NCBI RefSeq assembly: GCF_003334385.1
Contig: NZ_QOWN01000197.1
Length of the DNA: 342 bases
Direction: 5' to 3' (one strand)
Source of the DNA: Escherichia coli
Lineage (GTDB): Bacteria > Pseudomonadota > Gammaproteobacteria > Enterobacterales > Enterobacteriaceae
The first letter of the stretch is position 1; each line of letters opens with the position of its first letter. The position numbers and the translations under genes were made by a program. The notes under the pieces were generated by a model, which saw only the letters and a list, made by a program, of their open reading frames with translations, ran no database searches and was not told the origin of the DNA. Shown in pieces: positions 1-342 of the stretch.

Positions 1-1
1 A

Positions 2-127
2 GAGCAGGCGATGTTTACCAAAGGTCTGGAAATTCATGTCAGACAGCGCACGATGAAAAAAGAGATTGAAGCGCTGGATGATGCGGAAGCTATACTGGCG
101 TATAAAATCGGTATCACAGACGGCTGA
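2..127 (+). CDS. 3' end of a protein-coding gene, 5'-partial (alternatively a 38-codon small ORF if the in-frame ATG at 11-13 is the true start); product not recognised
   Basis: Frame 2 is the only + frame open across 2-127 (frame 1 stops at TGA 67-69, frame 3 at TGA 54-56). Translation: EQA-MFTKGLEIHVRQRTMKKEIEALDDAEAILAYKIGITDG, then tandem in-frame stops TGA(125-127) TAA(128-130). Codon choice looks enterobacterial (CTG, GCG, GAA, AAA, ATT common). There is no convincing Shine-Dalgarno in the 10 nt before ATG 11 (agagcaggcg), so the frame most likely enters from upstream of the window. Confidence 0.55.
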   Translation, partial: EQAMFTKGLEIHVRQRTMKKEIEALDDAEAILAYKIGITDG

Positions 128-128
128 T

Positions 129-158
129 AAAAAAGAGAGGGGCAAGCCATAGCCCCTT
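129..158 (-). terminator. Weaker terminator-like hairpin in minus-strand orientation (second or backup terminator, or 3' end of a short minus-strand transcript)
   Basis: Stem 137-143 (gaggggc) pairing with 152-158 (gcccctt), including one G:U pair, 8-nt loop aagccata. An alternative register is gcaag 142-146 with cttgc 156-160. On the minus strand the stem is followed by TC then TTTTTT (complement of + strand A-tract 129-134). No T-tract follows it on the + strand. Confidence 0.45.
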
Positions 159-219
159 GCTACAAATCTACAGCTAAATAATACCCTGGTTGAGGCAAAT
201 TATTCGGTAATAAAAATTT

Positions 220-241
220 AAGGAGGCACAATAGCCTCCTT
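220..241. repeat. Perfect 8-bp inverted repeat AAGGAGGC-N6-GCCTCCTT (stem-loop); function unknown, contains a consensus Shine-Dalgarno-like motif
   Basis: 220-227 aaggaggc is the exact reverse complement of 234-241 gcctcctt, with 6-nt spacer acaata (228-233). Because it is a palindrome, the motif AAGGAGGC is presented on both strands. The minus strand has AAA TTTTT immediately 3' of the stem (complement of 211-219); the + strand has no T-tract after it. Confidence 0.8.
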
Positions 242-257
242 CACCCCTGTCAAAGAT

Positions 258-284
258 AAAAAACCGGGGAGTGCGTGCTCCCCG
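258..284 (-). terminator. Rho-independent (intrinsic) terminator for a minus-strand transcript
   Basis: 7-bp GC-rich stem, 265-271 (cggggag) pairing with 278-284 (ctccccg), six G:C pairs, 6-nt loop tgcgtg (272-277). On the minus strand the stem is followed by G then TTTTTT (complement of the + strand A-tract 258-263) and ATCTTT. On the + strand no T-tract follows the stem, so it is unidirectional. Confidence 0.75.
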
Positions 285-315
285 AGAGCATGATACTTGT
301 GGTTGATAGTTATTT

Positions 316-342
316 TTATCCGGCGACAAAGATATTGAGATG
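316..342 (-). CDS. Possible 3' end of a minus-strand protein-coding gene (only 8 sense codons plus stop in the window); product unknown
   Basis: Minus-strand frame reads CAT CTC AAT ATC TTT GTC GCC GGA TAA (…HLNIFVAG-stop), with the stop at + coordinates 316-318. The stop lies 31 nt upstream of the strong minus-strand terminator stem at 284, the expected gene-end layout. The other two minus frames are also open here, so the frame is chosen from position relative to the terminator, not from coding statistics. Confidence 0.3.
   Translation of the reverse strand, partial: HLNIFVAG

What the first reader, a model, noticed from the sequence alone, without database searches (positions are those of the whole stretch)
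128..315. Three consecutive hairpins in a convergent intergenic gap, all in minus-strand terminator orientation
Each of the three stem-loops (137-158, 220-241, 265-284) has an A-tract before it on the + strand, which is a U-tract after it on the minus strand, and none has a U-tract after it on the + strand. One terminator is expected for the minus-strand gene ending at 316; two more in the same orientation within 130 nt is more than simple termination needs. This could be redundant termination, a processed or structured 3'UTR, or a short separate transcript. The + strand gene ending at 127 has no intrinsic terminator of its own in the window.
Basis: seen in the sequence. Interest (0 to 1): 0.35.

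Follow-up and report, generated by a model that had tools for sequence, protein, structure and literature searches.

The report
Leftward terminator hairpins after a prophage tail-fibre gene
The three hairpins are real, leftward-facing transcription stop signals between a prophage tail-fibre gene and the eib adhesin gene of E. coli; this is mostly ordinary, but no leftward gene exists for them to end, and the strongest one closes a small repeated unit that may be an unrecognised antisense-RNA and mini-peptide gene.

Summary
Three stem-loops at 138-157, 220-241 and 264-285 look like terminators only on the minus strand (3 found, 0.3 expected), and all three persist when the whole minus-strand RNA is folded.

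The framing does not hold. The window is the end of a tail-fibre (DUF4376) gene plus the start of a 680-nt spacer before the co-directional eib gene, in P-EibA-like lambdoid prophages found in 27 of 5426 E. coli genomes. The supposed minus-strand gene ending at 316 is a non-conserved 31-69-codon ORF that RefSeq does not annotate.

The hairpins are three different things.
- **hp1** abuts the stop codon. This design recurs: 20 of 28 distinct downstream regions of related genes have a reverse-facing terminator there, against 1.8 expected.
- **hp2** is weak and decays in the sister allele.
- **hp3** is the one canonical terminator. It closes a ~120-135-nt unit that is duplicated in sister alleles and has diverged copies in two unrelated loci. 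A conserved 17-codon hydrophobic mini-ORF lies antisense to it.

My best reading is that these terminators stop short leftward transcripts before they enter the tail operon. An Ibs/Sib-like antisense-RNA and mini-peptide pair is possible but unproven. Interest is low to moderate.

The parts
1..127 (+). 3' end of a prophage tail-fibre / tail-fibre-assembly gene (DUF4376 protein, 192 aa in full). The stop codon TGA is at 125-127.
   Evidence: RefSeq annotation in 27 genomes. Matches PHROG 1141 'tail fiber protein' at E = 2.7e-78. It is orf-191A of P-EibA.
128..137 (-). A-run TAAAAAAGAG directly after the stop codon. On the minus strand this is the U-tract of hp1 (CUCUUUUUUA).
   Evidence: The sister allele keeps it as AAAAAAAGA, overlapping its own stop codon.
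138..157 (-). hp1: a 6-bp GC-rich stem (AGGGGC/GCCCCT) with an 8-nt loop. It is a reverse-facing terminator abutting the tail-fibre gene.
   Evidence: The stem and A-run are kept while the loop is replaced (8 nt to 6 nt) in a sister allele that is only ~70% identical across this patch. The same design appears in 20 of 28 distinct downstream regions of related genes.
220..241 (-). hp2: an 8-bp perfect palindrome AAGGAGGC-N6-GCCTCCTT, which reads as Shine-Dalgarno/anti-Shine-Dalgarno on both strands. It is a weak terminator, because the minus-strand tail starts AAA before its U5 run.
   Evidence: In the sister allele the two inner pairs are lost (dG -6.4) and the tail becomes UAAUUAUC. Its function is uncertain.
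258..285 (-). hp3 with its A-run (258-263, read as U6 on the minus strand). This is the one canonical intrinsic terminator: stem 264-271/278-285, minus-strand tail UUUUUUAU.
   Evidence: score +34. Homologous hairpins with different loops occur in L016 and in L134/L139, and as a tandem paralogue (hp4) in long alleles. A stem-breaking C281A variant exists in L001, L009, L014 and L015.
286..342 (-). Body of the repeated ~120-135-nt unit that ends at hp3; it continues beyond the window. This is the most invariant stretch of the locus.
   Evidence: 100% identity between alleles that differ by ~30% just to the left. Homology to L016 and L139 covers this stretch.
291..342 (+). Candidate 17-codon mini-ORF, ATG 291-293 to TGA 342-344, with the stop cut by the window end. 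It encodes MILVVDSYFYPATKILR and is fully antisense to the unit that ends at hp3.
   Evidence: The same ATG position is found in L016 (MIIVVVIFLYFYYLMTS) and L139 (MIFVVVILFFSH, or 17 aa with one T fewer). Differences in codons 2-5 are third-position synonymous or Leu/Ile/Phe. The only polymorphism inside the ORF among window-type copies is the synonymous CCG>CCA. There is no Shine-Dalgarno sequence at normal spacing, so the ORF is unproven.

Best explanation
The window is the right-hand end of the late (tail) gene block of a P-EibA-like lambdoid prophage, plus the first third of the long non-coding spacer before the eib gene. eib is an immunoglobulin-binding adhesin gene carried as extra cargo (a 'moron') with its own expression signals. 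The three hairpins are minus-strand intrinsic terminators of unequal quality and separate origin. They are not a redundant terminator for one convergent gene.

- hp1 travels with the tail-fibre gene. It is a reverse-facing terminator set against the stop codon, a design that recurs with unrelated sequences behind most relatives of this gene.
- hp3 travels with the eib-side spacer, as does a fourth, paralogous hairpin in longer alleles. It terminates a short leftward transcript made from a ~120-135-nt repeated unit.
- hp2 is at best a weak back-up.

Together they would stop leftward, non-antiterminated transcription before it runs antisense into the tail operon. Such transcription could come from the small unit(s), from spurious or divergent promoters in the AT-rich eib control region, or from cargo and host DNA further right. 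Rightward late transcription meets no terminator and can read on towards eib.

Shown here: the structures, their orientation, their enrichment, their conservation pattern, the absence of a convergent gene, and the recurrence of the hp1 design. Inferred: that they terminate in vivo, and which transcripts they stop.
For: - Orientation and enrichment: 3 minus-facing and 0 plus-facing terminator-like sites in 342 nt, against 0.3 expected. The stems persist in the full-length fold. Minus-strand scores exceed plus-strand scores for every hairpin.
- Context: tail-fibre gene, then a 680-nt spacer, then eib (+), orf156 (+) and an autotransporter gene (+). In phage PhiR5_2, apart from two small unconserved 49-aa calls in the spacer itself, no minus-strand gene is annotated for about 20 kb to the right.
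- hp1 is conserved as a structure. Its stem and A-run are intact inside a mosaic patch (window ~95-245) that is only ~70% identical between alleles, while the loop is replaced.
- The hp1 design is general. Of 28 dereplicated downstream regions of related tail-fibre genes, 20 carry a minus-facing terminator within 75 nt of the stop, against 1.8 +/- 1.2 in dinucleotide shuffles. Only 8 carry a plus-facing one, and several of those are the same hairpins acting bidirectionally. This includes other eib-type loci whose next long ORF is co-directional (L027, L029, L051, L052).
- Longer alleles carry a fourth minus-facing terminator 150 nt further right, with the same GGGGAG/CTCCCC stem.
- hp3-type hairpins keep the stem and T-run but change the loop in three diverged homologues.
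Against: - There are no transcript data, so no 3' end is shown.
- No convincing sigma-70 promoter was found for a leftward transcript in the window-type spacer: none in the window, and one 9/12 match further right, which is within chance expectation.
- hp3 tolerates a stem-breaking C>A change in at least four loci, and hp2 decays in the sister allele, so selection on the array as a whole is not strict.
- Only hp3 passes a quantitative terminator score.
- Phage lambda itself shows no such terminator after its tail-fibre assembly gene.
- The 28 survey clusters are not fully independent; they contain roughly 9-10 distinct hairpin sequences.
- If the relevant leftward transcription were N-antiterminated pL transcription, intrinsic terminators would be largely ignored.
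Confidence: 0.55

Rival explanations
1. hp3 and the conserved stretch to its right (286-344 and beyond) form a small gene pair of the type I toxin-antitoxin kind (Ibs/Sib-like). A tiny hydrophobic peptide would be encoded on the + strand just after the hairpin. A short antisense RNA on the minus strand, ending at hp3, would repress it. The window copy may be a decayed version.
For: - The unit is self-contained, and its homology ends sharply. It runs from the A-run/T-run of the hairpin to a distal motif CAGA(A/T)TTTTCGTA, in three diverged versions found in unrelated contexts: the eib spacer, an island next to an integrase gene and IS1 in L016, and a locus next to a porin gene in L139. It is also tandemly duplicated in long alleles.
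- The ATG sits at the same position after the hairpin in all three versions. The peptides are MILVVDSYFYPATKILR, MIIVVVIFLYFYYLMTS and MIFVVVILFF.... Variable sites in codons 2-5 are 3 third-position sites out of 4, all synonymous or Leu/Ile/Phe. Mean hydropathy is 2.2-2.6 for L016 and L139, against 2.44 for IbsC.
- L139 has a promoter-like TTGTTA-17-CATAAT (with TG) on the antisense strand, 44 nt before the terminator. L016 has TTGTTT-16-GATAAT at the same place (read by eye). L016 also has a 10/12 promoter-like site on the peptide strand.
- ibsC/sibC has the same layout: A-run, hairpin (the reverse of the Sib terminator), then the start of a 19-codon hydrophobic ORF.
Against: - There are only three diverged members, and five further database scans found no others.
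- There is no Shine-Dalgarno sequence at usable spacing; GAGAG ends 1 nt before the ATG.
- ORF lengths and C-termini are not conserved, and L139 is 12 codons as assembled.
- The window-type peptide carries Asp and Ser in its hydrophobic run (hydropathy 0.82), and the window-type unit lacks the -35 element.
- The paralogous hp4 unit has no intact ORF.
- There is no Rfam match, including to Sib.
- The nucleotide conservation could be due to the antisense RNA alone.
Confidence: 0.2
2. The hairpins act on the + strand RNA, which is the read-through late transcript and/or a long eib leader. They would serve as 3' stabilisers or processing sites, and the A-runs would be incidental.
For: - The stems are equally stable, or slightly more stable, as + strand RNA.
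- There is no + strand terminator, so + strand RNA must cross them.
- The allele B change at the base of hp3 (C265T) gives a G.U pair on the + strand but a C.A mismatch on the minus strand.
Against: - The A-run directly 5' of a GC stem recurs in about 10 unrelated hairpin sequences behind this gene family. That is the exact mirror image of an intrinsic terminator and is hard to explain as incidental.
- In the 223-nt + strand fold, the centroid shows hp3 partly refolded and has a far weaker energy than the MFE.
Confidence: 0.1
3. The hairpins are evolutionary leftovers with no present function. They would be terminators of cargo genes or small units that have been lost or have decayed through the recombination typical of lambdoid prophages.
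For: - The mosaic structure puts hp1/hp2 and hp3 on different recombination segments.
- There is a 114-117-nt indel beside the window.
- A stem-breaking variant of hp3 occurs in several lineages.
- hp2 decays in allele B.
- The window-type unit looks degenerate compared with L016 and L139.
Against: - The hp1 stem and U-tract are preserved through ~30% local divergence.
- The strong orientation bias across many unrelated sequences argues for selection on at least the hairpin next to the stop codon.
Confidence: 0.12
4. One reading: these are redundant terminators, or a structured 3' UTR, of a minus-strand protein-coding gene ending at 316.
For: An open minus-strand frame does stop at 316-318, and one phage record (PhiR5_2, automatic annotation) calls a 49-aa CDS there.
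Against: - The frame is 31 codons with a TTG start in the closest genome, and 49-69 codons elsewhere. Only the last 12 residues are shared, and frame-shifting differences lie within the indel.
- It matches no protein family.
- It is not annotated in any of the 27 RefSeq genomes or in the P-EibA record.
Confidence: 0.03

Closest known systems
Intrinsic (Rho-independent) terminators, including tandem and bidirectional ones between bacterial genes
   Same: A GC-rich stem of 6-8 bp, a loop of 6-8 nt and a U-run on the minus strand. There are several in series, as in tandem terminator sets.
   Different: They face against the only neighbouring genes. No gene lies upstream of them on their own strand. 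Only one of the three (hp3) has an ideal U-tract.
Moron boundaries in lambdoid prophages (cargo genes with their own promoter and terminator inserted after the tail genes, as described for HK97/HK022-type phages; from general knowledge)
   Same: The location is the same: just after the last tail-fibre gene, at a mosaic junction, next to the cargo gene eib.
   Different: Classical moron terminators follow the cargo gene and face the same way as it does. These precede the cargo gene and face the opposite way.
Ibs/Sib type I toxin-antitoxin repeats of E. coli K-12 (ibsC/sibC inspected here)
   Same: The layout around hp3 matches: an A-run, a hairpin that is the terminator of the antisense RNA, and then the start of a tiny, very hydrophobic ORF (17 codons here, 19 in ibsC). 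The unit is a short repeat of about 120-140 nt found in tandem and in dispersed copies.
   Different: There is no sequence or covariance-model similarity to Sib. There is no Shine-Dalgarno sequence. The window copy is less hydrophobic and lacks a recognisable antisense promoter. Nothing has been tested experimentally.
Prophage-encoded small RNAs of pathogenic E. coli (AgvB, AsxR, Esr41, STnc100, Pas RNAs)
   Same: These are short transcription units ending in intrinsic terminators, carried in non-coding spacers of lambdoid prophages.
   Different: No Rfam family matches the window or 22 related loci. The Pas RNAs sit near the Q/lysis region rather than after the tail fibres (bioRxiv 10.64898/2026.05.13.724894).

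Membership tests
Intrinsic (Rho-independent) terminator, minus strand | A GC-rich stem of at least 5 bp with a short loop (3-8 nt) | tested here: met
   All three hairpins have 6-8 pairs, 5-6 of them G-C, and loops of 6-8 nt. dG is -12.2 to -14.8 kcal/mol.
Intrinsic (Rho-independent) terminator, minus strand | A U-rich tract immediately 3' of the stem | tested here: inconclusive
   hp3 has UUUUUUAU directly after the stem, so the feature is met. hp1 has CUCUUUUUU, with the run starting 3 nt after the stem (1 nt in the sister allele). hp2 has AAAUUUUU in this allele and UAAUUAUC in the sister allele. Score d is +34, -25 and -40 respectively (formula recalled from memory).
Intrinsic (Rho-independent) terminator, minus strand | RNA 3' ends map to the U-tract in vivo or in vitro | not testable with these tools
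   No transcript data were available.
   The frame ending at 316 is 31-69 codons, is not conserved and matches no family. It is not annotated in the 27 RefSeq genomes. Both flanking genes are on the + strand.
Type I toxin-antitoxin pair (Ibs/Sib-like) | A small hydrophobic ORF conserved in position and frame | tested here: inconclusive
   The ATG sits at the same position in three diverged homologues, and changes in codons 2-5 are synonymous or conservative. However, length and C-terminus vary, the window peptide has a hydropathy of only 0.82, and there is no Shine-Dalgarno sequence at normal spacing.
Type I toxin-antitoxin pair (Ibs/Sib-like) | An antisense RNA with its own promoter and terminator overlapping the ORF | tested here: inconclusive
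   A terminator is present in all copies. A promoter-like site is present in L139 and, by eye, in L016. None is recognisable in the window-type unit.
Type I toxin-antitoxin pair (Ibs/Sib-like) | Similarity to the Sib RNA family model | tested here: not met
   There is no Sib/QUAD match even at E up to 5-10, and none at the gathering score in 20 loci.
Type I toxin-antitoxin pair (Ibs/Sib-like) | The peptide is toxic when over-produced, and the RNA counteracts it | not testable with these tools
   This needs an experiment.
Known prophage small RNA families (Rfam 15) | A covariance-model match | tested here: not met
   The window at E up to 10 gives only three chance-level hits. There are 0 gathering-score hits in 20 related loci.
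Dispersed palindromic repeats (REP/BIME-like) | Many copies scattered in intergenic regions of the host chromosome | tested here: not met
   Every sub-segment is found only together with the tail-fibre/eib cassette, in 27 of 5426 genomes, plus one diverged copy of the hp3 unit. There are no hits in 100,044 species-representative genomes.

The most novel reading that the evidence does not exclude
The hp3 unit (window 258 to about 430 in full loci) and its relatives in L016 and L134/L139 form a previously undescribed, rare family of Ibs/Sib-like type I toxin-antitoxin or antisense-RNA/mini-peptide modules. They are carried in horizontally acquired DNA of E. coli. The copy in the window is a partly decayed member whose terminator now doubles as an insulator for the tail operon.
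Probability: 0.2. Interest if true: 0.5.

Novelty: new member of a known kind. Interest (0 to 1): 0.3.

Why it matters
- **Annotation.** The locus should not be read as a convergent gene pair. The small minus-strand ORF called in some phage records is probably spurious.
- **Phage biology.** A reverse-facing terminator set against the stop codon of the last tail-fibre gene recurs with unrelated sequences in most relatives (20 of 28). This suggests selection to keep leftward transcription from cargo DNA out of the late operon. It also means late transcription can read into eib unhindered.
- **Small genes.** If the hp3 unit is a real antisense-RNA/mini-peptide pair, it would add a rare new family to the type I toxin-antitoxin-like elements of mobile DNA. 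That is modest but testable.

Tried and rejected
- **Minus-strand coding.** The 31-, 49-, 69-, 84- and 51-codon minus-strand ORFs are not conserved in frame or length and match no PHROG family.
- **Plus-strand 55-aa ORF.** This ORF spans all three hairpins and is annotated in PhiR12_5, but it is absent from the window's allele.
- **Known RNA families.** None matched.
- **Independent promoters between the hairpins.** None were found by scan. A perfect TTGACA at 253-248 on the minus strand has no -10 partner.
- **Covariation analysis.** This was not possible, because the window-type locus exists as only two or three alleles.
- **Convergent tail-fibre-assembly gene of an invertible segment, as an explanation for reverse terminators.** Clusters with a minus-strand ORF of about 160-180 codons (or larger) lying directly downstream mostly have bidirectional, plus-facing or no hairpins, not minus-only ones.
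- **Distal motif CAGAATTTTCGTAG as the end of a conserved ORF ('TEFS*').** The frames differ between homologues.
- **Homology of the core of the two tandem units.** This was not significant (z = 1.3); only the ends are similar.
- **Phage lambda as a precedent.** It has no terminator-like site after its tail-fibre assembly gene.
- **Searches for further relatives.** Species-representative genomes gave 0 hits in two scans. Plasmids gave only chance hits. Viral contigs gave only the same locus or random hits.
- **Literature.** The papers held on eib say nothing about this spacer. The original P-EibA paper is not held.
Full report
**What is in the window**

Positions 1-127 are the 3' end of a + strand gene with its TGA stop at 125-127. 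BLAST places the whole window in 27 of 5426 complete E. coli genomes, always on the chromosome and usually in several copies per genome. The match lies under a 'DUF4376 domain-containing protein' gene.

In the closest genome (99.7% identity) the gene order is: tail tip protein J, tail fibre, DUF4376 protein, a 680-nt spacer, a YadA-C-terminal-domain protein, a 156-aa protein, and an S6 autotransporter. All are on the + strand. This is the arrangement of prophage P-EibA of strain ECOR-9: J, lom, orf-401, orf-191A, eibA, orf-156A, orf-60A, eaaA. The DUF4376 protein matches PHROG 'tail fiber protein' families (E = 2.7e-78).

The window is therefore the end of the last tail-fibre gene plus the first 215 nt of the spacer before eib, an immunoglobulin-binding adhesin gene carried as cargo.

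**Checking the observation**

The three stem-loops are present: 138-157, 220-241 and 264-285. The consensus scan reports all three as terminator-like on the minus strand and none on the + strand, against 0.3 +/- 0.6 expected.

Folded as a 223-nt minus-strand RNA, the region keeps all three stems in both the MFE and the centroid structure (z = -3.9). The single hairpins have dG of -12.2, -14.8 and -14.3 kcal/mol.

They are not equal as terminators. I used a d'Aubenton-Carafa-type score, with the formula recalled from memory and modern energy parameters, so it is only a ranking.
- hp3 scores +34.
- hp1 scores -25, or -6 in the sister allele, because its U-run starts 1-3 nt after the stem.
- hp2 scores -40, because three A's precede its U5 run.
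- Every hairpin scores higher on the minus strand than on the + strand.

**The 'convergent gap' is not there**

The minus-strand frame that stops at 316-318 is 31 codons with a TTG start in the closest genome. Sister alleles carry a 114-117-nt insertion just right of the window (junction near 350). There the frame becomes 49-69 codons and shares only its last 12 residues, with frame-shifting differences inside the insertion.

This frame and the other small minus-strand ORFs match no PHROG family. None of the 27 RefSeq genomes annotates anything under 251-342. The P-EibA record does not either. Only one automatically annotated phage record calls a 49-aa CDS there.

A 55-aa + strand ORF spanning all three hairpins is annotated in PhiR12_5 but is absent from the window's allele. 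The spacer is non-coding apart from the mini-ORF discussed below, and both flanking genes point rightward.

**The three hairpins have different histories**

Two main alleles exist: A (the window) and B (for example L002). A sliding comparison gives this pattern:

| Window positions | Identity between alleles A and B |
|---|---|
| -210 to about 95 | ~100% |
| about 95 to about 245 (last 30 nt of the gene, hp1, hp2) | ~70% |
| about 245 to 350 (hp3) | 96-100% |
| just beyond 350 | 114-117-nt indel |
| from the indel up to the eib start | mostly 92-100%, with a second short indel |

So hp1 and hp2 sit on one mosaic segment, and hp3 sits on another.

Inside the divergent patch, the hp1 stem (AGGGGC/GCCCCT) and its A-run are intact while the loop is replaced (AAGCCATA becomes GCTCCA). 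hp2 keeps its outer six pairs, loses the inner two, and loses its U-rich tail; dG falls from -13.7 to -6.4.

hp3 shows a C>T change at the base of the stem in allele B, a different loop and spacing in P-EibA, and a stem-breaking C281A in at least four loci. Selection therefore looks real for hp1, relaxed for hp2, and moderate for hp3.

**hp1 is one instance of a general design**

I collected 80 viral-contig loci encoding relatives of the tail-fibre protein. I extracted the DNA after each stop codon and dereplicated it to 28 distinct downstream sequences.
- Twenty carry a minus-facing terminator-like hairpin within 75 nt of the stop. The A-run typically abuts or overlaps the stop codon, for example TAAAAAAAGAGGCTGC...GCAGCC, TAACAGACAAAAAGATGGGGGA...TCCCCCAT and TAAAAAGAAGGGGAGC....
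- Eight carry a plus-facing one, and several of these are the same hairpins acting bidirectionally.
- Dinucleotide shuffles give 1.8 +/- 1.2 minus-facing and 0.6 +/- 0.7 plus-facing.

The clusters are not all independent; they contain about 9-10 distinct hairpin sequences. The bias is still clear.

A convergent gene does not explain it. Several minus-only cases are other eib-type loci whose next long ORF is co-directional (L027, L029, L051, L052). Clusters with a minus-strand ORF of about 160-180 codons (or larger) lying directly downstream mostly have bidirectional, plus-facing or no hairpins. Phage lambda shows no such site after its tail-fibre assembly gene.

**hp3 closes a small repeated unit**

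In the long alleles a fourth minus-facing terminator lies about 150 nt to the right of hp3. It has the same GGGGAG/CTCCCC stem and a T6 tail.

Read on the minus strand, each of the two tandem units begins with TACGAAAATTCTG(C/T)AT and ends with the terminator, 116-124 nt in all. The ends are similar (overall z = 5.9), but the cores are not significantly similar (z = 1.3).

A weak BLAST hit led to a diverged copy in an unrelated E. coli island, next to an integrase gene and IS1 (L016). A metagenome pattern scan then found a third type next to a porin gene (L134/L139). L139 and L016 are 81% identical over 126 nt (E = 4e-21). L139 and the window type are about 82% identical over 64 nt.

In all three types homology starts at the A-run before the hairpin and ends at the distal motif CAGA(A/T)TTTTCGTA. 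The flanks are unrelated. A terminator alone would not be kept as a bounded module in unrelated places, so the unit probably contains a gene.

**What the unit might encode**

On the + strand, six bases after the hairpin, all three types have an ATG followed by hydrophobic codons:
- Window: MILVVDSYFYPATKILR (291-344, stop cut by the window end).
- L016: MIIVVVIFLYFYYLMTS.
- L139: MIFVVVILFFSH as assembled, or 17 aa if a T-run is one base shorter.

Among codons 2-5 the variable sites are three third positions, all synonymous, one of them with three states all encoding Val. The fourth is a first position giving Leu, Ile or Phe. The only polymorphism inside the ORF among all window-type copies is the synonymous CCG>CCA.

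On the opposite strand, L139 has a promoter-like TTGTTA-17-CATAAT with TG, 44 nt before the terminator. L016 has TTGTTT-16-GATAAT at the same place (by eye). Either would give an RNA of roughly 65-70 nt antisense to the start of the mini-ORF.

ibsC/sibC of K-12 has this same layout: A-run, the reverse of the Sib terminator, then a 19-codon hydrophobic ORF.

Several points count against this reading.
- There is no Shine-Dalgarno sequence at usable spacing.
- ORF length and C-terminus are not conserved.
- The window peptide has Asp and Ser in its hydrophobic run (hydropathy 0.82, against 2.2-2.6 for the others).
- The window-type unit has GATAAA and no -35 element.
- The paralogous hp4 unit has no intact ORF.
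- There is no match to Sib or any other Rfam family.
- No further members turned up in five more scans.

I treat this as a lead, with a probability of about 0.2.

**Most likely function**

The hairpins are minus-strand intrinsic terminators that stop short, non-antiterminated leftward transcripts before they run antisense into the tail operon. hp3, and hp4 where present, end the transcript(s) of the small unit(s) in the eib-side spacer. hp1 is the boundary terminator that belongs with the tail-fibre gene. hp2 adds little.

No + strand terminator lies between the tail-fibre gene and eib, so rightward late transcription can continue into the cargo gene.

The structures, their orientation bias, their conservation pattern and the absence of a convergent gene are shown here. 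Actual termination and the identity of the leftward transcripts are inferred. No convincing leftward promoter was found in the window-type spacer. In phage PhiR5_2, apart from two small unconserved 49-aa calls in the spacer itself, no minus-strand gene is annotated for about 20 kb to the right. This argues that the relevant transcripts start within the spacer itself.

**Comparison with what is known, and verdict**

These are unannotated members of a well-known class, intrinsic terminators, in a prophage cargo junction. They match no known small-RNA family and are not REP-like repeats: each sub-segment occurs only together with this cassette.

The reverse-facing terminator at the stop codon of the last tail-fibre gene is a tidy general pattern that I have not seen described. 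That statement rests on my own knowledge and on a limited literature search. The possible antisense-RNA/mini-peptide unit is the only part that could be new in kind.

Overall interest is low to moderate (0.3).

Noticed in passing
window 291-342 (+), continuing to 344 in L001:8291-8344: A 17-codon mini-ORF (MILVVDSYFYPATKILR) starts 6 nt after hp3. It is too short for the ORF lister and is cut by the window end. Much more hydrophobic homologues exist in L016 (MIIVVVIFLYFYYLMTS) and L139.
   Followed up: yes
just right of the window: junction at about window 350; L004:4350-4466, L002:5350-5463: Sister alleles carry a 114-117-nt insertion that holds a fourth minus-facing terminator (GGGGAG...CTCCCC + T6) and an 8-bp hairpin TGCAATAC-N9-GTATTGCA. 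The insertion is flanked by 3-nt ATC microhomology.
   Followed up: partly
window about 95-245, against the flanks: There is a mosaic patch. Alleles A and B are ~70% identical here but ~100% identical on both sides, so the last 30 nt of the tail-fibre gene were exchanged as a block together with hp1 and hp2.
   Followed up: yes
L001:8669-8708 (= L003:3777-3814, annotated stem_loop in AF151091): A perfect 12-bp inverted repeat, GGAAATTCCGAA-N16-TTCGGAATTTCC, lies about 100 nt upstream of eib. Related palindromes sit at the same place in other eib-type spacers (L035, L044). It has no T-run on either side, so it could be a regulator binding site. Phage PhiR5_2 carries the eib activator genes ibrA and ibrB about 20 kb downstream.
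   Followed up: no
window 220-241, minus strand: hp2 reads AAGGAGG-CTATT-GTG-CCT-CCT-TAA on the minus strand, which is a strong Shine-Dalgarno sequence, a GTG start and a 3-codon frame. This is not conserved in allele B. A similar AAGGAG...CTCCTTCAC palindrome, with no U-tract, occurs in another eib-type spacer (L035).
   Followed up: partly
window 126-134 and 255-263; 251-258 and 327-334: hp1 and hp3 share the same 9-nt lead-in GATAAAAAA. The octamer CAAAGATA is repeated on either side of hp3. In the minus-strand fold, 313-334 pairs with 243-262 around hp3, using several G.U pairs.
   Followed up: no
L016:252-290 (-): There is a JUMPstart RNA element (Rfam RF01707, 52.7 bits, E = 8e-10) in the E. 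coli island that holds the diverged copy of the hp3 unit. It is unrelated to the finding.
   Followed up: no
L037, L038, L047, L051 and L027 (first 40 nt after the stop codon): The commonest reverse-facing hairpin behind related tail-fibre genes (AAAAAGATGGGGGA...TCCCCCATGAAC) also has an ATG at the 3' foot of the stem, followed by a short ORF (for example MNCVDYVIIVKIYTMPGK). I did not examine whether this is more than coincidence.
   Followed up: no
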